Shown: positions 2,007-41,866 of the stretch, one piece after another
Layout: each line of letters opens with the position of its first letter
How positions within the stretch are numbered: position 1 is the first letter of the stretch
IMG/VR virus record: IMGVR_UViG_3300037245_001069
Location: 1-60,408 of that record
DNA length: 60,408 nucleotides
Reading direction: 5' to 3' (one strand)
From: a virus
Taxonomy: Duplodnaviria > Caudoviricetes
The notes under the pieces: model-generated
Databases searched by the model: none
The model's input: only the letters and a program-made list of their open reading frames with translations
What the model was told of the DNA's origin: nothing
Program-made: the position numbers and the translations under genes

Positions 2007-2375
2007 CTAACAAGCATATTCGTGATTTACATTTCCAGAACCTTTTACACACATCCTTTTAACATGTTCTTCTTCTTTGAAATTAGTCCATAATGGATCT
2101 TGTTTCTCTCCAGTTAGTTTTTGAAGTTTTCTAATTTTCTTTCTGTTTTCAATTAACTTATAACAAGTGCTACATGTAGCCATGTTTCGAGTTCTATTGA
2201 TTTGAAAGAAGTAAAATGGTTTTCTATGCTCGTCATCCATAGCATCGCAGAACCAAAATGTATGGCCTTGGTCTATTAGAGAATCTTGATATTCACGTAA
2301 GGTTTCAATATGGTCTTTTGTAGCTTTTATAAATATTTTATCCATGATTTTAAAGGTTTCAGATGTTTTTAACAT
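2007..2375 (-). CDS. Hypothetical protein (CxxC)
   Basis: ORF directly downstream of the recombinase. Confidence 0.55.
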   Translation of the reverse strand: MLKTSETFKIMDKIFIKATKDHIETLREYQDSLIDQGHTFWFCDAMDDEHRKPFYFFQINRTRNMATCSTCYKLIENRKKIRKLQKLTGEKQDPLWTNFKEEEHVKRMCVKGSGNVNHEYAC

Positions 2376-2387
2376 GACTTATTCATT

Positions 2388-3218
2388 TTATAATCTTATC
2401 GCCTTCACAGGACTTTCAGTTTCTAATATATCGGAATCAATTATCTTTATGTAGTTGGCAGTTGTATTAATGTTCTTATGCCCTGCTATCTTCTGCACAC
2501 GCCTTAAATCAACACCATTCTTTATAAGCTGAGTCAAACATGAGTGTCTTAAACTGTGGCTTGATATACGCTTATTTATCCCTGCCTTTTTTGCACTCGA
2601 TTTTACGATATTTTGAATACTTGTTACCGAATAATGATTACCAGTCGCCCCCTCAAATAAATACGAACTAACCCTATATACTTTCCAATATTCACGGATC
2701 AAAGACAAAAGAGAATCATCCAACATAACAATCCTGTCAATCTTACCTTTCGAATTACGGATGTTTATTTTTGAATTTTTACTATCAATATCGTTAATCT
2801 TAACATTAATTGCCTCTGAAACTCTTAACGCACAAGCATACATTAACGCAATAACTGTTCGATGTTTTAGGTTTATCGTAACATCCATCATCGTTTGCAT
2901 TTCTTCAGTTGATAAAATGTCCGGCTGTTTTTGTTCTATCTTTGGCCTTGGAAGAATATCGTGATCGAACTTCCTTCCCTTAACTTCTCGGTAGTACGCC
3001 TTGAAAGAGTTGATTATTGACATTTGCGAGGAACTGCTTATGTTTCTTCTTTTACGACTGACAATATACTTTCTTAAATCTGTCTCATCAATATCATCAT
3101 AGTGCTTATTTAGTCGCAATGCAACGACCTTTATAACTCCTATGTAAGAACTGATAGTCTTATCACTTAGATTTTTAAGTAATAGTTTTTCTTCGAATAA
3201 TTCAATCTTTTCGCTCAT
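2388..3218 (-). CDS. Tyrosine recombinase, integron-integrase-like/XerC-like; likely start MSEKIE at 3218
   Basis: Full catalytic set LRVSE, SKGK, HSLRH, GH, ANY; SAM-like N-terminus; TACATTTG box 4 nt upstream of ATG. Confidence 0.93.
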   Translation of the reverse strand: MSEKIELFEEKLLLKNLSDKTISSYIGVIKVVALRLNKHYDDIDETDLRKYIVSRKRRNISSSSQMSIINSFKAYYREVKGRKFDHDILPRPKIEQKQPDILSTEEMQTMMDVTINLKHRTVIALMYACALRVSEAINVKINDIDSKNSKINIRNSKGKIDRIVMLDDSLLSLIREYWKVYRVSSYLFEGATGNHYSVTSIQNIVKSSAKKAGINKRISSHSLRHSCLTQLIKNGVDLRRVQKIAGHKNINTTANYIKIIDSDILETESPVKAIRL

Positions 3219-3254
3219 GAAACAAATGTACGAATATAAATTTATATACACAAC

Positions 3255-5332: not shown

Positions 5333-5569
5333 TTAATGCAATTCGGCATCTATCTTGTGGTCACATGCAGTGCATATAATGTCAGTTATTAGGTATCCAC
5401 AAATTCCGCACTTGCAAGCCGAAACGCTAACAGAGTCTAAATTGAACTTTAAAACTTGTTCAGCTAATTCATCTACTTTCTGTTGAAGTGCATCAAAATC
5501 TTCAGAGGTACTACCAGTATCGAAATACTTGTTTCCTACTTTCCCATATAATTTTCCGTGATATTCCAT
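5333..5569 (-). CDS. Cassette 7 protein with C-terminal Cys cluster
   Basis: Reads through R'' as DSVSVS; stop adjacent to the core. Confidence 0.7.
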   Translation of the reverse strand: MEYHGKLYGKVGNKYFDTGSTSEDFDALQQKVDELAEQVLKFNLDSVSVSACKCGICGYLITDIICTACDHKIDAELH

Positions 5570-5614
5570 GTGTATATTTTTAATTACGTTTTAAAACTCA
5601 ACTTCGCCGGAACG

Positions 5615-5785
5615 TTATGGCTTACCCTCTCCGTGTCTAACTATCTGTGTTTCGTCAATTTCTATCCAGTAGCAATCATTAAGTTCGTCATCCCATTTGT
5701 TATCAAACCATTCAGCAATAGACCATGCAAAATCTTTCATTACCCAGTAATAACCATTTTCTCTTTCCTTCGCTTTTGTATCCAT
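5615..5785 (-). CDS. Cassette 8 small protein (56 aa, MDTKAKERENGYYWV...)
   Basis: Manually translated; stop TAA in the GTTA core at 5614. Confidence 0.65.
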   Translation of the reverse strand: MDTKAKERENGYYWVMKDFAWSIAEWFDNKWDDELNDCYWIEIDETQIVRHGEGKP

Positions 5786-5865
5786 AATTTATCGGTATTT
5801 AAAAGTTTCCACTAAATTTCAAGGGCGGTCAACACATAGCATGAACGTTCAGTTCAATTACCTCA

Positions 5866-23901: not shown

Positions 23902-24697
23902 GTCTTAATGTGTACGTAAGTAGCTGATAACTAAGGGAGTGTTAAACTGTAAGTAAAACGAAGATCTTACATAAACACTGACACGATGGCAAAAGCCACA
24001 CAACACACAAACCAGGCGATCTAATGAAGTTTAGTAGTTTAATGAATAACGGTAGTTTAAATAGCAGCCGTTCACATGGATATGTAAGAGCGCGCACAGC
24101 AGCCATTATACCACCTAACTAACTGACTCGCAATATATTATAGTGAACATAATATAAATTATAAGACTGGCTTACAGATCGTAAGTTAACGACAAAAACC
24201 ACAGCACCAGGAGCCACAACCACCGGAACCCCTGAACAATCCTATTCAATCGATTGACAATTAAGAAAGAACCAGGGAAACAACGCCGTTTTAGTCTTGC
24301 TTCCTTCGTTAATCCACTGTTAACCACTATGAACACCGGCACCGCGTACCCCACCCACCCCAAAATGAAAACACTCTTACTCCTATTCGCTGCCTTTTTT
24401 ATTATATTACTAGCCTATTCCACCGACCCATACATTTCAACAACACTTCTTAATACAATTCTTTCACAAATACATTACATTTAAACCCATAAGTCTACTT
24501 TCTTCCGCGGTGAGATAAAAGTTCTGGTTAATATTTAATGTATTCGGGCTATTTTGGTCACATTTCGATACAATTCCACCTTCAGATTCGTTTCCAAATG
24601 AGTTTTTATCTGGTTATTCTGAAAAATTTCTTTTTACTTGATGTGAAAAATATTTCAACGCGTGGGTGTCTATATGCGATTTTACTATCTTTGTTAA

Positions 24698-25072
24698 ATG
24701 AAGAAACCAATTCACGTAAAGCCCAACTTTTATTCTTATTGTTTGGAGCCGATGAAAATCATAGCAAAAGAGTTTGGATATAATTTATTAGTACATGGCT
24801 CGCTTAATAGGGATATGGACTTAATAGCTGTTCCCTGGTCGGATACCCCGAAGAATGAATTGAACTTAATCAAGGCATTGGATATGTACCTCAGTGACTC
24901 TTATATGGAGAATAAAGAAGATTACCTACATTCTGTGTTGCCTGGAGGCAGAAATGCCTATGTTATTAACATGAACAGGACAAGTATATGGAATAACTAC
25001 AATGATGCTGAATATTATTTTGATATTTCTGTTACTCCTTTGGTTGTCCTCTCGAAAAAATCTTCTTATTAG
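24698..25072 (+). CDS. Hypothetical protein, nucleotidyltransferase-like motif
   Basis: GYNLLVHGSLNRDMDLIAVPW; TATCTTTG box 4 nt upstream. Confidence 0.6.
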   Translation: MKKPIHVKPNFYSYCLEPMKIIAKEFGYNLLVHGSLNRDMDLIAVPWSDTPKNELNLIKALDMYLSDSYMENKEDYLHSVLPGGRNAYVINMNRTSIWNNYNDAEYYFDISVTPLVVLSKKSSY

Positions 25073-25252
25073 TTCGATAAGTACCGCCCCTTTCTCAAAA
25101 AAATCTTTTCTCTCAGCAGAACAGGGATTAGTTGCGATGTTGACTTTGAAAAAAAATCGAAGTTAGATTCTCTATATGCGATTTTAAACTGTTATAGATA
25201 AAAGTGATTGGGATTATTGTTTGAATTGGGATTATGGTTGTATTTTTGTGAC

Positions 25253-27244
25253 ATGGAAGTAAATGTTGTTCACAATGAGAATTGCTTAGATACGATGCGC
25301 GGAATGCCTGACAATAGTATTGATTCGATAGTTACGGATCCACCTTACGGATTATCGTTCATGGGTAAAAAATGGGATTATGAAGTTCCGAGTGTTGAAA
25401 TCTGGAAAGAATGCTTGAGGGTATTGAAGCCCGGAGGTTACTTACTTGCTTTTGCGGGTACTCGGACTCAGCATAGGATGTGTTGCAATATTGAGGATGC
25501 AGGATTTGAGATTAGGGATATGATTGCTTGGATTTATGGACAAGGATTTCCAAAATCTCATAATATTCACAAATCAGTAGAAAAACTTGTATCGCAACCA
25601 AATACCCATTATATTTGTATTGATGAAAATAGAAATGAATGGCATATATCCAACAAACAGGAAGCCGAACACGGTATGCGACCTATGCCAACTTCCAATA
25701 TATCGCAGACCAAACCTATTGATAAAGAACAAGGGAAAGTTTTGCAGTCGGTCTTGTCGAAACAAAGTACATACAGCACAATGCAGGGGGAAGAATCCAA
25801 AGAAAGCATTAAGGATGGAGAAGAATCCATCATGGAAGGGCGGAGTAACGATGTTCAAGAAGAAGGGGAATTATGTCGGTGTGAGATATGTGAGATGTCC
25901 GAAAGAATATTTGGGGATGGCTCGGAAGGATGGGTATATAATGGAACACAGACTGTTTATGGCGCAGAAGATGGGTCGGTTATTGACAAGAACGGAAGTA
26001 GTTCATCACATAGACCACAATCCAGCAAACAACGATATATTAAATTTGATGCTATTTGCGAACAATGCAAAACACAAATCATACGAAGGTATGAAGGGTT
26101 AGGCAGTGCGATTAAACCTGCATTAGAGCCCATAACAGTAGCACGGAAACCACTTTCCGAAAAAACTATCGCCTTAAATGTTTTAAAGTGGGGTACTGGT
26201 GGGATTAATATTGATGGGTGTAGGGTGGAAATAAATCCAGACATTGATGATAAACGATTAGGAGGCAACGGAGATTGGTCGTCTAGCAAAATGGCTAAAA
26301 ATGTTTATGAAGGTGGATATGCAGGTAATCGAGTTGGTTCTTCTGAGCAGGGTCGTTTCCCTGCCAACTTAATTCACGATGGTAGCCAGATGGTTTTGGA
26401 TTTGTTTCCTGCAAAAGCTGGTGCGGCTGCTCCTGTGATGTCGGGGCAGAAAGGGAAAAGTAATGGCATTTATGGAGATTTTGAGCAGAAAGGCGATGAT
26501 GGTGCCAGTTTTAGAAATGATTCCGGTTCTGCAGCGAGGTTCTTTTATTGTGCTAAAGCGAGCAAAAAGGATAGAAATAGTGGGCTTGACGGTTATAGGT
26601 TAATTTCGTATATTTGTACATGGAAAGAAAACAATACAACAAAAGAGGAAGCCAAAGCACAGCTATTGGTGGATATGGAACAATCACACCAAAAGGGTAT
26701 AGAAGAATTTGGGACATTGCAGAAAAGAGGAACAGAATGGAGCATAGAATTGTTTGGGAAATTCATAATGGCCCAATTCCTGAAGGATTGCGAATTCACC
26801 ACAAAGACGAGGATAAGCTCAATAACAGCATCGGAAATCTTGAATTACTTACAGCATTACATCATAAACGAAAACATTCAGGGTGTGAGTTGCGAGATGG
26901 TGAATGGTTCAAGCCTTGCCCTACTTGTGGAGAAACCAAGTCAGTTGGTGAATACTATAATCGAAAGGATGGGCTTTGCTATCAATGTAAATCCTGCTTT
27001 ATTAAACGGGCAACTAGAGATAAGCGTAAACGTAGAGCTAGGACGGTCTAATCATCCAACCGTGAAGCCTACCAAACTAATGCGATACTTAGTCAGACTA
27101 GTCACTCCCGTAGGCGGAACAGTCTATGACCCATTCGCAGGATCAGGAAGTACAGGGAAAGGCTGCAAGCCGGAGGGATTTAATTTTATTGGGTCAGAAT
27201 TAGATGAGGGTTATTGTGAAATTTCAAATGCTAGGATTAAATAA
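25253..27244 (+). CDS. N6A/N4C DNA methyltransferase (beta class) with two large insertions
   Basis: TDPPY, GFPKS, KPALEPI, GRFPAN, ARFFYCAK, HPTVKP and DPFAGSGST in one open frame. Confidence 0.92.
   Translation: MEVNVVHNENCLDTMRGMPDNSIDSIVTDPPYGLSFMGKKWDYEVPSVEIWKECLRVLKPGGYLLAFAGTRTQHRMCCNIEDAGFEIRDMIAWIYGQGFPKSHNIHKSVEKLVSQPNTHYICIDENRNEWHISNKQEAEHGMRPMPTSNISQTKPIDKEQGKVLQSVLSKQSTYSTMQGEESKESIKDGEESIMEGRSNDVQEEGELCRCEICEMSERIFGDGSEGWVYNGTQTVYGAEDGSVIDKNGSSSSHRPQSSKQRYIKFDAICEQCKTQIIRRYEGLGSAIKPALEPITVARKPLSEKTIALNVLKWGTGGINIDGCRVEINPDIDDKRLGGNGDWSSSKMAKNVYEGGYAGNRVGSSEQGRFPANLIHDGSQMVLDLFPAKAGAAAPVMSGQKGKSNGIYGDFEQKGDDGASFRNDSGSAARFFYCAKASKKDRNSGLDGYRLISYICTWKENNTTKEEAKAQLLVDMEQSHQKGIEEFGTLQKRGTEWSIELFGKFIMAQFLKDCEFTTKTRISSITASEILNYLQHYIINENIQGVSCEMVNGSSLALLVEKPSQLVNTIIERMGFAINVNPALLNGQLEISVNVELGRSNHPTVKPTKLMRYLVRLVTPVGGTVYDPFAGSGSTGKGCKPEGFNFIGSELDEGYCEISNARIK
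25623..26102 (+). CDS. HNH endonuclease nested in the +1 frame of the MTase
   Basis: CxxC, FCSRSC, NPSWKGG, EHRL...VHHIDHNPANN..NL; TATATTTG at 25610-25617. Confidence 0.85.
   Translation: MKIEMNGIYPTNRKPNTVCDLCQLPIYRRPNLLIKNKGKFCSRSCRNKVHTAQCRGKNPKKALRMEKNPSWKGGVTMFKKKGNYVGVRYVRCPKEYLGMARKDGYIMEHRLFMAQKMGRLLTRTEVVHHIDHNPANNDILNLMLFANNAKHKSYEGMKG
26620..27051 (+). CDS. HNH endonuclease nested in the +2 frame of the MTase
   Basis: EHRIVW..HNGPIP.G..IHHKD.DKLNN...NL plus C-terminal CxxC..CxxC; TATATTTG at 26609-26616. Confidence 0.87.
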   Translation: MERKQYNKRGSQSTAIGGYGTITPKGYRRIWDIAEKRNRMEHRIVWEIHNGPIPEGLRIHHKDEDKLNNSIGNLELLTALHHKRKHSGCELRDGEWFKPCPTCGETKSVGEYYNRKDGLCYQCKSCFIKRATRDKRKRRARTV

Positions 27245-27354
27245 AAAATCGAAGTTAGAATTCGCCTTATAGGTTTTCTCTATTGCGCGGGGGTTATTGA
27301 TATTGATTATTTATAATTGTTGTAGGGGATGTGAGTTGTTGTTATATTGCGGTC

Positions 27355-27780
27355 ATGAAAAATAGAAACTTAGATCACAAAGACGACTGGGCTACTCCGA
27401 AGTATTTTTATGACAGATTAAATGATGAGTTCAATTTTGACTTTGATCCATGTCCATTTATGCATGATATCCATGAATGGGATGGTCTTAATTCTAAGTG
27501 GGGTAAAAGAAACTATATAAACCCTCCGTACAGCAGAAAGCTAAAGGATTCATTTGTTATCAAGGCGATAGAGGAAAGTAAAAAAGGAAATCTTTGTGTT
27601 ATGCTTTTACCCGTCAGTACGAGTACCCAATTATTTCATAGGCATATTTTACCGAATAAAACTGAGATAAGATTCGTGGAAAGGCGCATTAAATTTTCTG
27701 GGTACAATTCCAGCGGCGAGTTTGTTGACAATAAGTGTGGGATGCATGATAGTATGGTTGTAATATTCGATGGGAGATGA
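27355..27780 (+). CDS. Phage Dam-like N6-adenine methyltransferase
   Basis: DDWATP, FDFDPC, NPPYS, VMLLPV, EIRF...RIKF. Confidence 0.88.
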   Translation: MKNRNLDHKDDWATPKYFYDRLNDEFNFDFDPCPFMHDIHEWDGLNSKWGKRNYINPPYSRKLKDSFVIKAIEESKKGNLCVMLLPVSTSTQLFHRHILPNKTEIRFVERRIKFSGYNSSGEFVDNKCGMHDSMVVIFDGR

Positions 27781-28085
27781 AGCTAACAATACTAGAAAGC
27801 CCATACGCCGGATTTATCCAAAGGAATGTAGATTATGCAAGGAAATGCGTGAAAGATTGTCTGAATAAGGGAGAGTCACCTATTGCGAGTCATTTATTGC
27901 TTACTCAGGATGGTATCTTAGATGATAATATTCCGAAAGAAAGGCAATTGGGTATCGATGCAGGGTTGGCATGGAAGAAAGTTGCTGATAAACAAGTGTT
28001 TTATATTGATTTCGGGATGAGTTCAGGGATGAAATATGCTGAATCGATTTCTGATCTACCGAAAGAGTATCGTAAAATACTATGA
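27777..28085 (+). CDS. Conserved phage protein (ILESPYAG / PIASHLL family)
   Basis: Recognisable motifs; D.GMSSGM. Confidence 0.7.
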   Translation: MKLTILESPYAGFIQRNVDYARKCVKDCLNKGESPIASHLLLTQDGILDDNIPKERQLGIDAGLAWKKVADKQVFYIDFGMSSGMKYAESISDLPKEYRKIL

Positions 28086-28162
28086 TAGAAAGATTTTCCA
28101 TAGAAATTATCTATTTGATTCCTACTTTGTTAATGGTTATTTTTGTGGAAAGAAATTAGACT

Positions 28163-28441
28163 ATGAAAACTTTATTATTAATTGTATTTAAGATTGTTGA
28201 AATTGCACTTGCTGTTTTTGTCTATGGCGCGATATGCAAGTTGGGTTATTTAATTTACCCACTACTCGATGCTTCATTGGGAGGAGTAAGAAGCGTTGAT
28301 TATCATTGGCTTAATCCATATTGGACTTTGCCTGCTATACTCGTCGTGCTGTGCATTGGGGTGTCATATTTGTTTGTAACGGAACTATTGCCTTTCTGGA
28401 TAAGAAAAAACAAGGAGTGGGTTAATCGAATAATAAAATAA
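28163..28441 (+). CDS. Membrane protein
   Basis: Two TM segments. Confidence 0.55.
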   Translation: MKTLLLIVFKIVEIALAVFVYGAICKLGYLIYPLLDASLGGVRSVDYHWLNPYWTLPAILVVLCIGVSYLFVTELLPFWIRKNKEWVNRIIK

Positions 28442-28767
28442 TGAACGAAACCTTAATTAACTGCGATCTTGACGTGCAAAATGCCATCAAAACTATTCCG
28501 AAACATAAAACTTTATGTGCCTTTTATGTTCGTGGGGAAGTTGAATTTGACAAAGAAGGTGATGGGTATGATTGTAAGAACCACGTAATATTAAGTGGTG
28601 GCAGCGAGACTTTAACGGCGTCTATTTTGAATCAGATTACTACTGATGAACTATTCAGGGATTTAGTTTTAGATGCTGTTTTAAATTACCTCTCCAACGA
28701 TGAGGATGCTCTTGATAAGTTTAATGATTACCTGGATGATATAACTGAAATTGACGATAGAACATGA
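28441..28767 (+). CDS. Hypothetical acidic protein
   Basis: Coupled ORF. Confidence 0.6.
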   Translation: MNETLINCDLDVQNAIKTIPKHKTLCAFYVRGEVEFDKEGDGYDCKNHVILSGGSETLTASILNQITTDELFRDLVLDAVLNYLSNDEDALDKFNDYLDDITEIDDRT

Positions 28768-28929
28768 TTAAACGAATAATCGAAGAGATCAAAAAGATAG
28801 ACGGAATTGAATCAGTATTCCATGTTGAAGGCTGTGTATTGGCCGTGTATTTAAAGGATGATGAAGTTAACGATCAGGGATTATCTTCTCATGAAACGAA
28901 TGAGAATTTAGAACAGTAAAATAAATATT

Positions 28930-29226
28930 ATGAGTTGTAATTCAATTACAGTTAGCACAAGTGAATGTTCAGAGAACAGCATTCCTAAGATTGCCGGAGT
29001 GTACATCACGAAAGATGGAACTCGGATTTACAAGAAATCAAATGGTGAGTTATTTACCTATCAGAATGATGAAGCTGGATTAAAGGCATTAGTATTGGTC
29101 CAGGAGTACGAATTGTGGAAAGTCTTATTCAAGCCCCAATCACAAAGAATAATAAACATCGTACTTATAACAGGATTAGTTTTAGCTTTGGCTGAGATTA
29201 TTTGGTTTGTGGTTACTAAATATTAA
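28930..29226 (+). CDS. Hypothetical protein with C-terminal TM
   Basis: ORF. Confidence 0.5.
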   Translation: MSCNSITVSTSECSENSIPKIAGVYITKDGTRIYKKSNGELFTYQNDEAGLKALVLVQEYELWKVLFKPQSQRIINIVLITGLVLALAEIIWFVVTKY

Positions 29227-39670: not shown

Positions 39671-41077
39671 ATGATTACAAAGGATAAGAAAAGCTACAGA
39701 GAGATTATGTCCGCATTGGATATCGTTAAATCAGTTCCGAATATAACAGTGCCTCAACATATCAATTCATTAATAACAGGTGATCCGTTTTATACTTCAT
39801 TGGATAATCAGTCACAATTAGAAAAAGAGTACGAGGTAAATCCTGTGCTTTCATCAGTTATTAATTTAAAAGCTGACTATATATCGAATGCCGCTGTTAG
39901 TGTCAGGAATGTTAAAAATGGCGAAATAATAACCGACAAGCAGTTCAAGCAAAGCAAAACATTAGACCCTATTATCAAGTCAATGTTCCGGTTAAAGAAC
40001 AACCCAAACCCACTCCAATCCACAAAGGAATTTTTCGGATTAACTTCTATTTTCAAGGATGTATTCGGGAATAGTTTTATTTATGGCAATAGTGTTTCTG
40101 GCAGCGTAAACATTAAAGACGTAGCGTTTTTATGGGCTGTTTGGCCTCAGTATATGAAACCAGAATTAAACGGTAATATATTTGATGCGGCAAGTCTTAG
40201 TGGAATTATAAAGGGATGGGATTGGAAGAAAGACACTTATAGTAAAAGGTTTTCTATCGAAGAAATATTACATAGGAAAGACCCTAATATAGGATTTAAT
40301 AATGTCAATGATTTAGTACTCGGAACTTCCAGGCAAAAATCTTTGTCGTGGCCTTTGTCAAATATCCGTATTGCTTACGAAAGTCGCAATGTTATAGCTA
40401 GAGAACGAGGAATGAGAGCTATTATATCTAGTTCTGATTCTGACGGGAATATGGGTTCTATCCCAATGGGTGATACTGAAAAGCAAGAAGTCCAAAGAGA
40501 TTTAAGAAACTATGGGTTCCGTAATGGGCAAGATCAATTTATGGTCACGCGGCATAATATTGCCGTCCACCATGTAGACCAAGACGTAAGAAAGCTTGGC
40601 CTTTTGAATGAAATAGCGTCCGATGCCATGGCTGTTTCGGAAAGATACGGAGTGCCGGAAATCCTTGTTAAATTGTACATAAAAGGTGCGACATTTGAGA
40701 ATCAGGAAAGTTCAGAAAGACGAATGTATCAGAATACAACGATCCCTGAGATGAATGATTTTATTGAGGATTTAAACGTTTGGCTAAAGACAAGGGATTT
40801 CGGATATGAATACATTGTCGATTTTAATCACATCCCTGTATTGCAGAAAAATGAAAAAGATCGTTCAGAGATAAATAAGAATATAAACACCATCAACAAG
40901 GAATTATTTTTCTCTGGAGCTATAATTTATAATCAATGGCTGCAAGCTATTGGGTACGCTTCCGTAGATCAGTCATGGGCTAAAAAACGGATTACTGAAA
41001 TGACAGATGAGGAAATTTTCAGGATTAAAGGAAATTATACGTTGAATTCTACAATTGAAGAAGATGGAAACCAATGA
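39671..41077 (+). CDS. Portal protein
   Basis: Size and position; FGNSFIY, YGVPE.L, ATFENQ motifs. Confidence 0.85.
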   Translation: MITKDKKSYREIMSALDIVKSVPNITVPQHINSLITGDPFYTSLDNQSQLEKEYEVNPVLSSVINLKADYISNAAVSVRNVKNGEIITDKQFKQSKTLDPIIKSMFRLKNNPNPLQSTKEFFGLTSIFKDVFGNSFIYGNSVSGSVNIKDVAFLWAVWPQYMKPELNGNIFDAASLSGIIKGWDWKKDTYSKRFSIEEILHRKDPNIGFNNVNDLVLGTSRQKSLSWPLSNIRIAYESRNVIARERGMRAIISSSDSDGNMGSIPMGDTEKQEVQRDLRNYGFRNGQDQFMVTRHNIAVHHVDQDVRKLGLLNEIASDAMAVSERYGVPEILVKLYIKGATFENQESSERRMYQNTTIPEMNDFIEDLNVWLKTRDFGYEYIVDFNHIPVLQKNEKDRSEINKNINTINKELFFSGAIIYNQWLQAIGYASVDQSWAKKRITEMTDEEIFRIKGNYTLNSTIEEDGNQ

Positions 41078-41293
41078 GAATAAAAAGGGGAAGATCGACA
41101 AGAAAAAGTTAATCAAGGATAAGAAGAAATTTATCAAGGAGAATCGAAACGTAATTTTGAAGTGAGATTAAAATTTAAAATATTATTTATCATGGCAATC
41201 GTAGGCTTAGCGGCTTACGGTAATGGAGGTTTACTGACCGTTCCTCCTGCCATGACTGTATTTAATTCGGTCGCTAATTTAAAAATGGTCAAG

Positions 41294-41866
41294 ATGGAAA
41301 ATGAAATTTGGAAAGGTGTATTCGGATTTGAGGGGTTTTATCAAGTCAGTGATATGGGTAGGGTTAAAAGATTGAAAAGAAATCATTCTAATAATCAGTA
41401 CAAAACAGACAGAATAATGTCTCCAAGAACATCCAATAATGGATATAAAAATATAAGTTTTACTATTAATCGCCATGTCAAGTCATTTTCCGTACATAGG
41501 TTGGTGGCATTGCATTTTATTTCCAACCCAGACAATAAACCACAAATCAACCACAAAAATGCAATTAAAACGGATAATAGAGTTGGTAATTTAGAGTGGT
41601 GTACCGCGAAAGAGAATATGACTCACGCTCATGCCAATGGATTAGTGAAACCAAATAAGTCTGGGGCTAGCGACTATCGGAGTCACCAAGTAATAATGAT
41701 AGACCTAGGTGGCAATGAAATTAATGAGTTCGGGAGTCTCATGGAGGCACAAAGAAAAACAGGAATAAGGAATGGCAATATATCTAAAGTGCTAACTGGA
41801 CGAACAAATACAGCAGGAGGATATAAGTGGAAAATAAAAAATAAAGAGCATGAGCATACATTGTAG
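41294..41866 (+). CDS. NUMOD4-HNH-NUMOD1 homing endonuclease
   Basis: EIWK...FEG.YQVSDMGRV, VHRLVA..F, INHKN..KTDN...NLEW, TAGGYKW. Confidence 0.92.
   Translation: MENEIWKGVFGFEGFYQVSDMGRVKRLKRNHSNNQYKTDRIMSPRTSNNGYKNISFTINRHVKSFSVHRLVALHFISNPDNKPQINHKNAIKTDNRVGNLEWCTAKENMTHAHANGLVKPNKSGASDYRSHQVIMIDLGGNEINEFGSLMEAQRKTGIRNGNISKVLTGRTNTAGGYKWKIKNKEHEHTL

What the first reader, a model, noticed from the sequence alone, without database searches (positions are those of the whole stretch)
25253..27244. Two HNH endonuclease genes overprinted inside one uninterrupted DNA methyltransferase frame
Seen: the MTase has inserts of about 170 and 150 codons, one between GFPKS and KPALEPI and one between ARFFYCAK and HPTVKP. 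In the MTase frame they read as motif-free sequence. In the +1 frame (25623-26102) and +2 frame (26620-27051) each is a complete HNH nuclease with Cys-pair zinc motifs. Each has a TATATTTG box 5 or 3 nt before its ATG, read as YIC in the MTase frame both times. Each HNH stop falls where conserved MTase sequence resumes. About 320 extra codons without a stop in an AT-rich genome implies selection to keep the MTase frame open. No intein termini or group I intron core are evident. Inference: splicing-independent homing elements that stay harmless by dual coding in tolerant loops, or a coupled nuclease/methylase module.
Basis: partly seen in the sequence, partly recalled or inferred. Interest (0 to 1): 0.87.

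Follow-up and report, generated by a model that had tools for sequence, protein, structure and literature searches.

The report
Two read-through HNH genes inside methylase
A phage DNA methyltransferase gene carries two selfish HNH nuclease genes written in other reading frames while its own frame stays open, a splicing-free way of living inside a gene that was first described in 2023-2025 and is shown here to be widespread.

Summary
The window is a complete 60.4-kb phage genome. Its 663-aa beta-class N6/N4 DNA methyltransferase (25253-27244) has two inserts of about 169 and 150 codons. Each insert is filled by an intact HNH_3 endonuclease gene, one in frame +1 and one in frame +2.

The open methyltransferase frame is not chance: 0 of 20,000 synonymous shuffles of HNH1 keep it open. 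The HNH frame is the conserved one. There is no intron or intein signature and no room for one. AlphaFold2 models the core confidently and the inserts mostly as low-confidence loops.

The same layout recurs in 22 other methyltransferases of the 83 examined. It involves several HNH lineages, at least four insertion regions and one antisense case. I found one counter-example in which the gene is split.

New here:
- an AT-rich, non-actinophage case, where the open frame can be tested statistically;
- two elements in one gene;
- a promoter box placed so that transcription should start at about each HNH ATG. The same box precedes the methyltransferase's own ATG. This suggests leaderless HNH mRNAs, but it is inferred, not shown.

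The parts
25253..27244 (+). Host gene: beta-class N6/N4 DNA methyltransferase, 663 aa, with an uninterrupted frame through both inserts. Motif IV (DPPY) and motif I (FAGSGST) are intact.
   Evidence: PF01555, E 2.8e-31; window shares all 52 invariant columns of the 80-sequence alignment; relatives of DpnA, CcrM, M.RsrI, MboIIA.
25241..25248 (+). TAnnTTTG box (TATTTTTG) ending 4 nt before the methyltransferase ATG. It has the same start architecture as the two HNH genes.
   Evidence: Box position relative to the transcription start is taken from PMC9723704.
25589..26095 (+). Insert 1 (about 169 codons, methyltransferase aa ~113-281). It replaces the variable linker between GFPKS..DKL and GWGTALKPALEPI. 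The boundaries are approximate.
   Evidence: alignment with insert-free L059, L061, L062, L065, L070, L072; aa 129-265 have pLDDT <50 and no secondary structure.
25587..25617 (+). Promoter-like site for HNH1: TTGTAT (25587-25592), a 17-nt spacer, then TATATT(TG) (25610-25617), then 5-7 nt to the ATG.
   Evidence: (8 of 12 match, gap 7).
25623..26102 (+). HNH1: 159-aa HNH_3 endonuclease with an N-terminal CxxC...CxxxC zinc ribbon, in frame +1 relative to the methyltransferase. Its TAG stop overlaps the conserved G-L-G codons.
   Evidence: E 2.4e-7; 50-68% identical to nested ORFs in L004, L006, L007, L008, L009, L011, L012, L020, L023.
26597..27046 (+). Insert 2 (about 150 codons, methyltransferase aa ~449-598), in the variable linker between ...DRNxGL(D/E)G and NHPTVKP. 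The boundaries are approximate.
   Evidence: aa 479-501 and 512-579 have pLDDT <50, and a moderate-confidence beta-hairpin lies at 448-474.
26586..26616 (+). Promoter-like site for HNH2: TTGACG, a 17-nt spacer, then TATATT(TG), then 3-5 nt to the ATG. The -35 hexamer lies in the conserved G-L-D codons of the methyltransferase.
   Evidence: 10 of 12 match; gap 5.
26620..27051 (+). HNH2: 143-aa HNH_3 endonuclease with a C-terminal CxxC...CxxCxxC zinc ribbon, in frame +2. Its TAA stop overlaps the S-N codons just before HPTVKP.
   Evidence: E 1.3e-17; 57-61% identical to the nested ORFs in L087 and L089.

Best explanation
The gene is an orphan phage DNA methyltransferase invaded twice by minimal homing-endonuclease cassettes of the 'out-of-frame HNH' (ShiLan-like) kind. 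Each cassette is little more than a promoter box plus an HNH_3 gene. Each sits in a naturally variable surface linker of the enzyme.

The cassettes are neither spliced out of the RNA nor out of the protein. The ribosome reads straight through them in the methyltransferase frame. This adds about 169 and 150 residues, most of them predicted with low confidence, which the enzyme tolerates. Selection keeps that frame free of stops and the insert length a multiple of three, because a cassette that destroys its host gene is lost.

Each HNH protein is made separately, most likely from its own internal promoter. The -10/-7 box lies 3-5 nt before the ATG, so the mRNA would start at or next to the start codon (leaderless). 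The HNH proteins presumably cut insert-free alleles in co-infecting relatives, and repair then copies the cassette in (homing).

What is shown: the architecture, selection for the open frame, conservation of the HNH frame only, the patchy distribution, and the absence of intron and intein features. What is inferred: no splicing, a tolerated read-through protein, leaderless expression, and homing activity.
For: 1. Architecture.

2. The open frame is selected.
- Window: 0 of 20,000 shuffles for HNH1; 4.8% and 0.005% for HNH2.
- Relatives: across 27 nested HNH elements in 23 of 83 methyltransferases, all 27 have 0 stops in the host frame against 1.0-11.9 expected. Fourteen elements have P<=0.0008 and 13 have P 0.011-0.20.

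3. GFPKS and HxTxKP lie in one uninterrupted ORF in 81 of 83 usable methyltransferases, the window among them. In L017 the GFPKS pattern was not found, but HxTxKP lies in a single ORF. L068 is cut by its contig end.

4. Only the HNH frame is conserved.
- HNH1 family: mean identity 0.52 in the HNH frame against 0.285 in the methyltransferase frame, higher in 66 of 66 pairs.
- HNH2 family: 0.54 against 0.33, higher in 20 of 21 pairs; the other pair is identical.
- Nucleotide differences peak at HNH codon position 3.
- Near-identical contigs from other studies show 18 substitutions in HNH1: 10 synonymous and 8 not in the HNH frame, 5 and 13 in the methyltransferase frame, with no new stop.

5. 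Mobility.
- On the methyltransferase tree the HNH1 family needs at least 4 gains or losses and the HNH2 family at least 6.
- The occupied alleles L005 and L019 have empty-site relatives L014, L027 and L029 at 85-86% nucleotide identity.

6. No intron or intein. The HNH ORFs fill the inserts except for 34 nt (HNH1) and 23 nt (HNH2) upstream of the ATG.

7. Fold. The core has pLDDT of about 90 or more. Insert 1 (aa 129-265) is below 50 with no secondary structure. Insert 2 is mostly below 50.

8. Expression.
- A sigma-70-like promoter ends 4-9 nt before the HNH start in 16 of 27 elements, against 274 of 6,503 ATG triplets (4.2%) in the same loci.
- In the window, TAnnTTTG precedes the ATG by 3-5 nt at 24698, 25253 (the methyltransferase itself), 25623, 26620 and 3218(-).
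- In flavobacteria this box occupies -12 to -5 relative to the transcription start (PMC9723704, passages read).
- Only 3 of 75 predicted genes have a Shine-Dalgarno-like 4-mer.

9. Precedent: PMC11855218 (introduction, results, discussion, legends and tables read).
Against: There is no RNA or protein evidence. No RNA run holds the locus, so neither the absence of splicing nor any transcription start is shown.

The 80 methyltransferase loci are the best 80 of 595 ranked by tblastn with the full-length query. That ranking favours alleles with an open frame.

In the HNH-led searches, which do not share that bias, 6 of 7 methyltransferase-embedded elements are read-through. One, L110, instead splits the methyltransferase into two ORFs around a conventional HNH gene.

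The permutation test is weak for single frame-+2 elements (P 0.01-0.2 each).

The promoter count treats related elements as independent. 11 of 27 elements have no such site, and promoter-like hexamers are not enriched in the region as a whole (12 found, 11.2 expected).

Whether the 663-aa enzyme is active is unknown.

Two of the 27 elements (L071 and the second one in L006) rest on phmmer links only and have no Pfam HNH hit of their own.
Confidence: 0.78

Rival explanations
1. The inserts are unrecognised self-splicing or otherwise removed RNA elements (a degenerate group I intron, or ribosomal bypassing), and the open frame is incidental.
For: Group I introns carrying HNH genes are common in phage genes (recalled; also discussed in PMC11855218). 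No RNA data exist for this locus. The authors of PMC11855218 also could not exclude splicing.
Against: No Rfam intron family matched at E<=10. The HNH ORFs fill the inserts, leaving 34 nt or less of non-coding sequence. That is far short of a ribozyme core, whose size I give from recall. A spliced or bypassed insert needs neither an open host frame nor a length divisible by three, yet 27 of 27 elements have both against 1-12 expected stops.
Confidence: 0.07
2. The HNH genes are domesticated partners of the methyltransferase, a nuclease/methylase module in which the methyltransferase protects phage DNA from its own nucleases. They would then not be selfish homing elements.
For: There is a tight physical association of HNH with a methyltransferase, in this gene family in particular. 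A second methyltransferase (Dam family) lies next door at 27355-27780.
Against: 60 of 83 methyltransferases of the family carry no nested HNH. Presence is patchy on the tree. Several unrelated HNH lineages and at least four insertion regions are used. Close relatives of HNH2 sit out of frame inside inteins of terminase genes. That is the behaviour of a homing endonuclease, not of a methyltransferase partner.
Confidence: 0.08
3. The structural reading is the same, but the HNH proteins are made by internal initiation on the long methyltransferase mRNA, not from their own promoters. The upstream boxes would then be fortuitous or inherited sequence.
For: The host apparently does not use Shine-Dalgarno sequences (3 of 75 genes), so AT-rich internal starts could be used. 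11 of 27 elements lack a positioned promoter-like site. One element (the second in L006) has a classical AGGAGG upstream instead.
Against: A promoter-like site with its -10 box 4-9 nt before the start is found in 16 of 27 elements, against 4.2% of ATG triplets. It occurs in several HNH lineages and in two promoter styles: TTGAnn-N17-TGnTAATAT-N8-ATG, and TAnnTTTG-N3-5-ATG. In the window the same box-to-ATG spacing marks three ordinary gene starts.
Confidence: 0.3
4. It is chance, or a decaying pseudogene: the methyltransferase is dead and the frame merely has not yet acquired stops.
For: None beyond the lack of functional data.
Against: (shuffle tests). All 52 invariant columns of the 80-sequence family alignment are kept in the window protein, including DPPY and FxGSG. 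The layout recurs at 40-68% HNH identity, which is far too old for an undecayed pseudogene.
Confidence: 0.01

Closest known systems
ShiLan domain: the out-of-frame 'hidden' HNH insertion in actinobacteriophage DNA methylases (Gosselin et al. 2023, PMC9957025, abstract seen in the search listing only; Arsenault, Gosselin & Gogarten 2025, PMC11855218, main text read). Includes the Pacc40 gp60 insertion.
   Same: The host is a PF01555-type phage methylase. The insert has no stops in the host frame, and an HNH gene in another frame fills it. The HNH stop lies at the 3' edge of the insert, overlapping host codons. There are no intron or intein features. The insert is modelled as a low-confidence loop. 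The distribution is disjunct. Mycobacterium phage SG4 gp70, a cluster F1-type methylase, appeared among my hits with exactly this layout.
   Different: - The window's HNHs are HNH_3 family. The nested ORF of SG4, which I take to be of the ShiLan type, falls in a separate phmmer cluster, apart from both window HNHs.
- Two HNH cassettes occupy two sites in two frames of one gene.
- The genome is AT-rich (35% GC) and from marine sediment, so the open frame can be tested statistically.
- The published cases are all GC-rich actinophages, and the word 'promoter' does not occur in that paper.
- Here a positioned promoter box suggests how the HNH is expressed.
Free-standing homing endonuclease genes that split a phage gene into two ORFs (recalled: mobE in Aeromonas phage Aeh1 nrdA, and split gp43 DNA polymerase genes in T4-like phages).
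   Same: The same kind of nuclease inserts into a conserved gene without an intron or an intein. Locus L110 shows this outcome for an HNH1 relative (65% identical) at the same methyltransferase site.
   Different: In the window the host gene is not split. One polypeptide is read through both inserts.
Inteins and group I introns carrying homing endonucleases, including inteins with out-of-frame or antisense endonucleases (bioRxiv 10.1101/2025.01.02.630785, passages read; bioRxiv 10.64898/2026.09.14.751524, listing only).
   Same: A homing endonuclease rides inside a host gene without destroying it. Out-of-frame nucleases inside an open host frame are also seen in inteins, and HNH2 relatives sit that way in terminase inteins.
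   Different: There is no Hint or intein splicing domain and no ribozyme here. Nothing removes the insert.
I-HmuI-type HNH_3 homing endonucleases of phage introns (PF13392 with NUMOD domains).
   Same: The same catalytic family, HNH_3. The genome's third HNH (41192-41866) has the I-HmuI domain set NUMOD4 + HNH_3 + I-HmuI NUMOD-like.
   Different: HNH1 and HNH2 lack NUMOD domains and use zinc ribbons instead. They are not intron-encoded.

Membership tests
Out-of-frame HNH insertion element in a phage DNA methylase (ShiLan-like kind, PMC11855218) | An insertion relative to insert-free homologues of a phage DNA methylase | tested here: met
   two inserts of about 169 and 150 codons that are absent from L059, L061, L062, L065, L070 and L072.
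Out-of-frame HNH insertion element in a phage DNA methylase (ShiLan-like kind, PMC11855218) | No stop codon in the host frame across the insert, and the frame restored after it | tested here: met
Out-of-frame HNH insertion element in a phage DNA methylase (ShiLan-like kind, PMC11855218) | A complete HNH endonuclease ORF in another frame that fills the insert, with its stop at the 3' edge | tested here: met
Out-of-frame HNH insertion element in a phage DNA methylase (ShiLan-like kind, PMC11855218) | No detectable intron or intein features | tested here: met
   Rfam, E<=10; no Hint or intein family at E<=0.01. Sequence-based only.
Out-of-frame HNH insertion element in a phage DNA methylase (ShiLan-like kind, PMC11855218) | Disjunct distribution among related methylases | tested here: met
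   at least 4 and at least 6 changes on the tree; occupied and empty alleles at 85-86% nucleotide identity.
Out-of-frame HNH insertion element in a phage DNA methylase (ShiLan-like kind, PMC11855218) | Sequence homology of the HNH to the ShiLan HNH itself | tested here: not met
   the nested ORF of SG4 clusters only with the second element of L006, not with HNH1 or HNH2. The window therefore matches the architecture, not the same element lineage. ShiLan's own sequence was not in hand.
Out-of-frame HNH insertion element in a phage DNA methylase (ShiLan-like kind, PMC11855218) | The insert is not removed from RNA or protein, and the HNH is an active homing enzyme | not testable with these tools
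   No RNA run holds the locus. This is also untested in the published cases.
Group I intron with a homing endonuclease ORF | A conserved ribozyme core (P3-P9) flanking or overlapping the ORF | tested here: not met
   no Intron_gpI hit at E<=10. At most 34 nt of each insert lies outside the HNH ORF.
Intein | Hint-fold splicing blocks at both ends in the host frame, and a C/S/T residue at +1 | tested here: not met
   no intein or Hint family. The +1 residues are G282 and N600/H601. Host-frame identity among relatives is only 0.29-0.33.
HNH_3 endonucleases (PF13392) | A profile match above the curated cut-off, with the His...Asn...His motif present | tested here: met
   30.7 and 63.6 bits against a cut-off of 24.8. 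The motifs VHHIDHNPANND..N..H and IHHKDEDKLNN..N..H are visible.
Beta-class N6-adenine/N4-cytosine DNA methyltransferase (PF01555) | An N-terminal motif IV (DPPY), a C-terminal motif I (FxGxG), and a profile match | tested here: met
   Base specificity and enzyme activity were not testable.

The most novel reading that the evidence does not exclude
Read-through HNH cassettes are a general, splicing-free third lifestyle of homing endonuclease genes, beside introns and inteins, and are not an actinophage curiosity.

They are minimal units, a promoter box plus an HNH ORF. Their sequence is shaped to be stop-free in the host frame, in either orientation. They occupy several linkers of phage DNA methyltransferases across hosts from 27% to 65% GC. 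The same HNH lineage also fills the endonuclease slot of terminase inteins out of frame.

Their expression problem is solved by an internal promoter whose -10/-7 box sits 3-9 nt before the ATG, which gives leaderless mRNAs tuned to the host's promoter type.
Probability: 0.45. Interest if true: 0.7.

Novelty: new member of a known kind. Interest (0 to 1): 0.52.

Why it matters
Homing endonuclease genes are thought to survive inside essential or useful genes by hiding in a self-splicing intron or an intein. A cassette that is simply translated through, and kept harmless only by stop-codon avoidance in a tolerant loop, is a third solution. It has so far been documented only by sequence analysis in GC-rich mycobacteriophages, where open alternative frames are unremarkable.

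This AT-rich phage and its metagenomic relatives give the first statistically compelling evidence I know of that the host frame is actively kept open. They show that the phenomenon is common in one methyltransferase family: 23 of 83 examined, a sample that is biased towards such cases. They also offer a concrete, testable answer to the question the 2025 paper left open, namely how the hidden nuclease is expressed.

It matters for annotation as well. Gene callers report one long 'methylase' and miss the nested nucleases, as in the GenBank records of BUCT618, Cr-LKS3 and SG4.

Tried and rejected
- **Near-identical phages:** megablast of 24000-29000 against GenBank phages found no match.
- **RNA evidence:** no listed holder of the locus is an RNA run, so nothing can be said about expression or splicing.
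- **Insert 2 in other runs:** contigs of X2-X4 do not cover the insert 2 region, apart from one 68-nt piece of the HNH core in X3. This is a blank, not evidence.
- **Joints in X2 and X3:** they skip 609-664 nt around insert 1. Their sides are only 21-26 nt long at 88% or more likeness, and they probably come from other methyltransferase homologues. I did not use them as evidence of empty alleles.
- **Solved relatives of HNH2:** none found by sequence at E<=0.01.
- **Promoter scan of the region:** not enriched overall (12 sites against 11.2 expected). The promoter argument rests on position relative to the ATG and on recurrence, not on this scan.
- **Other same-strand nested ORFs:** clusters of alt-frame ORFs in mostly GC-rich loci, and the L015/L049/L066 group, gave no Pfam hit where checked (L066 and L015). 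I treated them as alt-frame readings of conserved methyltransferase sequence.
- **Antisense ORFs:** the 170 ORFs of 100 aa or more mostly cluster as antisense readings of the conserved core. Only the L020 one is an HNH.
- **Rows dropped:** L030:3090-3389 and L050:1493-1807 fell in the phmmer HNH cluster, but I left them out of the element count without an individual Pfam check. They are short ORFs that lie early in the methyltransferase ORF.
- **L106:** this locus (65% GC) has an epimerase ORF spanning a weak HNH2 match. I regard it as a chance open frame.
- **Supplements:** supplementary files and the GitHub repository of PMC11855218 were not seen. Their survey lists could already include relatives of the loci described here.
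Full report
**What is there**

The window is a complete virus record of 60,408 bp with direct terminal repeats and 35.5% GC. One open frame runs from 25208 (TTG), or 25253 (ATG), to 27244. From the ATG it encodes 663 aa that match PF01555 N6_N4_Mtase (E 2.8e-31).

By sequence the protein is related to the solved beta-class enzymes DpnA, CcrM, M.RsrI and MboIIA. It keeps DPPY near the N-terminus and FAGSGST near the C-terminus. It shares all 52 invariant columns of an 80-sequence family alignment.

Two ORFs are nested on the same strand. One is 25623-26102 (159 aa, frame +1) and the other is 26620-27051 (143 aa, frame +2). Both match HNH_3 above the curated cut-off and carry Cys-pair zinc ribbons.

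Alignment with insert-free homologues puts insert 1 at about aa 113-281 and insert 2 at about aa 449-598. Both lie in linkers whose length varies in insert-free homologues. The HNH stops overlap the first conserved methyltransferase codons after each insert.

**Is the open frame chance?** No.
- Permuting synonymous codons within HNH1 leaves the methyltransferase frame open in 0 of 20,000 trials (mean 8.8 stops).
- For HNH2 the fraction is 4.8% with its own codons and 0.005% with genome codon usage.
- None of 5,475-5,826 windows of 144 or 160 codons in the +1 or +2 frames of 24 other genes is stop-free (all).

**Relatives**

A tblastn search of GenBank phages found 1,075 records with the methyltransferase, none covering 80% or more of the query in one place. 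Three with unusually long matches are annotated as single methylase genes of 592-620 aa. They are Escherichia phage BUCT618, Cylindrospermopsis phage Cr-LKS3 and Mycobacterium phage SG4 gp70. Each hides an HNH-like ORF of 201-208 aa in another frame.

A scan of IMG/VR returned 595 relatives, of which the best 80 loci were kept. In 81 of the 83 usable methyltransferases (79 IMG/VR loci, the 3 GenBank phages and the window) the GFPKS and HxTxKP motifs lie in one uninterrupted ORF. In L017 the GFPKS pattern was not found. L068 is cut by its contig end and was left out.

Of 54 same-strand nested ORFs of 100 aa or more, the window's two among them, Pfam matched 21 to HNH_3. Smaller numbers matched HNH, HNH_2 and HNH_5. 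phmmer clustering and individual checks give 27 nested HNH elements in 23 of 83 methyltransferases. Two rows of that cluster were dropped, and two elements were kept on phmmer links alone; both points are set out under Tried and rejected and the Against line.

The elements use at least four regions of the gene:
- between DPPY and GFPKS (L057);
- just after GFPKS, used by the HNH1 family 11 times, a second family in L001 and L081, and the SG4-type element;
- inside the variable target-recognition region (L002, L050, L071, and an antisense HNH_3 in L020, E 3.3e-11);
- just before HPTVKP, used by the HNH2 family 7 times and another family in L006.

Double occupancy like the window's recurs in L004, L006, L020 and L089, and in L111-L113.

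All 27 elements have zero stops in the host frame, against 1.0-11.9 expected. Fourteen have P<=0.0008 and thirteen have P 0.011-0.20. They include contigs with 27-33% GC.

**Which frame is under selection?**
- In codon alignments of the HNH1 family (12 members), mean amino-acid identity is 0.52 in the HNH frame and 0.285 in the methyltransferase frame over the same nucleotides. It is higher in 66 of 66 pairs.
- For the HNH2 family (7 members) the figures are 0.54 and 0.33, higher in 20 of 21 pairs. The remaining pair is identical.
- Nucleotide differences are greatest at HNH third positions.
- Contigs of three other sequencing runs hold the methyltransferase-HNH1 region at 94-98% identity. The 18 listed substitutions inside HNH1 are 10 synonymous and 8 non-synonymous in the HNH frame, but 5 and 13 in the methyltransferase frame. 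None creates a stop.

The host-frame reading of the insert thus looks unconstrained except for stop avoidance.

**Mobility**

On a maximum-likelihood tree of the methyltransferases, built on columns filled in at least 60% of rows, HNH1-family presence needs at least 4 changes and HNH2-family presence at least 6. The window's core is most identical to insert-free L079 (63%).

L005 and L019 (occupied) differ from L014, L027 and L029 (empty) by only 14-15% at the nucleotide level. The occupied alleles read HSTVKP instead of HPTVKP, because the HNH stop TAG overlaps those codons.

**Not an intron, not an intein**

Rfam finds no intron family at E<=10. At most 34 nt of either insert lies outside the HNH ORF. 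Pfam finds no Hint or intein domain in the host frame. The residues at the downstream junctions are G and N/H, not C/S/T.

AlphaFold2, run with the 80-sequence alignment, gives a confident core: 145 residues at pLDDT 90 or more. It gives pLDDT below 50 with no secondary structure for aa 129-265, and below 50 for most of insert 2, apart from a hairpin at 448-474. This matches what was reported for the ShiLan domain.

**Expression (inferred)**

Upstream of 16 of 27 nested HNH starts there is a sigma-70-like promoter whose -10 hexamer ends 4-9 nt before the start codon. The background is 274 of 6,503 ATG triplets (4.2%) in the same loci. The elements are related, so this is not 16 independent events. 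The pattern does occur in several lineages and in two styles, TTGAnn-N17-TGnTAATAT-N8-ATG and TTGACn-N16/17-TATATT-N5/6-ATG.

In the window the box fits TAnnTTTG. That is the sigma-A -7 box of flavobacteria, which occupies -12 to -5 (PMC9723704, passages read). The same box ends 4 nt before the ATG of the methyltransferase itself (25253), of the upstream gene (24698) and of the gene at 3218(-). It ends 5 and 3 nt before the ATGs of HNH1 and HNH2. The predicted transcription starts therefore fall on or next to the A of each ATG.

Only 3 of 75 predicted genes have a Shine-Dalgarno-like 4-mer. From this I infer a Bacteroidota-type host and leaderless or near-leaderless HNH mRNAs. No transcription start is shown. 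Internal initiation on the methyltransferase mRNA is a live alternative.

**A counter-example and a link to inteins**

Searches led by the HNH proteins are not biased by the state of the methyltransferase frame (28 loci in all).
- They found read-through nesting in methyltransferases in L087 (the same contig as L052), L088, L089 and L111-L113.
- In L110 the HNH1 relative (65% identical) is a conventional gene. It separates an N-terminal 133-aa fragment of the methyltransferase from a C-terminal 213-aa fragment in a different frame.
- So 6 of 7 methyltransferase-embedded elements in this unbiased set are read-through.
- HNH2 relatives also lie out of frame inside ORFs of 751-864 aa. The four ORFs checked (L092, L093, L098, L100) carry an intein splicing domain. 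L092 and L093 also match terminase large-subunit domains. L094 and L097 were not checked. One of the checked contigs has 29% GC.

**Comparison with what is known**

The kind is published. The 'ShiLan domain' of mycobacteriophage methylases was described in 2023 (PMC9957025; abstract seen in the search listing only). It was recognised in 2025 as an out-of-frame HNH with no stops in the methylase frame, no intron or intein features, a looping predicted structure and a disjunct distribution. A second case is Pacc40 gp60 (PMC11855218; introduction, results, discussion, legends and tables read). A genome announcement mentions another (PMC12613952, listing only).

That work is confined to GC-rich actinophages. 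It gives no statistical test of the open frame and does not mention promoters (0 occurrences). It proposes leaderless initiation only as speculation. I did not see the paper's repository or supplements, which may list further cases.

The window's elements fit the architecture on every tested point. They are not homologous to the SG4-type HNH. I therefore file them as new members of a known kind.

**Verdict**

It is not categorically new. Its value lies in three things: strong statistics from AT-rich genomes, the breadth of the phenomenon, and a testable expression mechanism.

Noticed in passing
L110:2093-3602: A methyltransferase of the same superfamily is split into two ORFs, 133 aa and 213 aa in different frames. 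A conventional, non-nested HNH_3 gene 65% identical to HNH1 separates them at the same post-GFPK site. This is the alternative outcome of the same invasion.
   Followed up: partly
L092, L093, L094, L097, L098, L100 (about 2350-3070 in each locus): HNH_3 genes related to HNH2 (core 38-62% identical) lie out of frame inside ORFs of 751-864 aa whose frame stays open. Pfam on four of them (L092, L093, L098, L100) finds an intein splicing domain. Terminase large-subunit domains matched in L092 and L093. L100 has 29% GC. [quoted passage not shown]
   Followed up: partly
L020:2276-2794 (minus strand): An HNH_3 gene (E 3.3e-11) lies antisense inside a 697-aa methyltransferase ORF that stays open (33% GC; 5.3 stops expected, P 0.0002). 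The same ORF holds a sense-strand HNH1-family element.
   Followed up: partly
window 41192-41866: A third HNH gene, free-standing. It has the I-HmuI-like domain set NUMOD4 + HNH_3 + I-HmuI NUMOD-like and lies between the portal gene (39671-41077) and the next structural gene. I did not check whether it interrupts anything.
   Followed up: partly
window 27355-27780: A second DNA methyltransferase (phage Dam family, PF05869, E 5.9e-19) lies directly downstream of the invaded one.
   Followed up: no
window 24686-24700, 25241-25255 and 3218-3230 (minus strand): TAnnTTTG boxes end exactly 4 nt before the ATG of three ordinary genes, and only 3 of 75 genes have a Shine-Dalgarno-like motif. This suggests a Bacteroidota-type host and several leaderless phage mRNAs.
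   Followed up: partly
L001:1783-2540 and L081:3265-4020: In the second HNH family at site 1, the motif SKA(L/V)D(K/N) occurs on both sides of the insert. The upstream copy supplies the TTGAT -35-like hexamer. This recalls the repeat of flanking residues noted for the ShiLan domain.
   Followed up: no
L111:1693-4608 (also L112, L113): A 972-aa methyltransferase ORF carries two nested ORFs. One is an HNH1-family gene between DPPY and GFPK, as in L057. The other, before HPTVKP, is a zinc-ribbon/HNH-like gene; its first residues (printed) resemble those of the second L006 element, which clustered with SG4's nested ORF, but the two were not compared.
   Followed up: partly
GenBank records OM735461.1, OM373202.1 and NC_023699.1 (L001-L003): Each is annotated as one long methylase CDS, with the nested HNH ORF unannotated.
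   Followed up: yes
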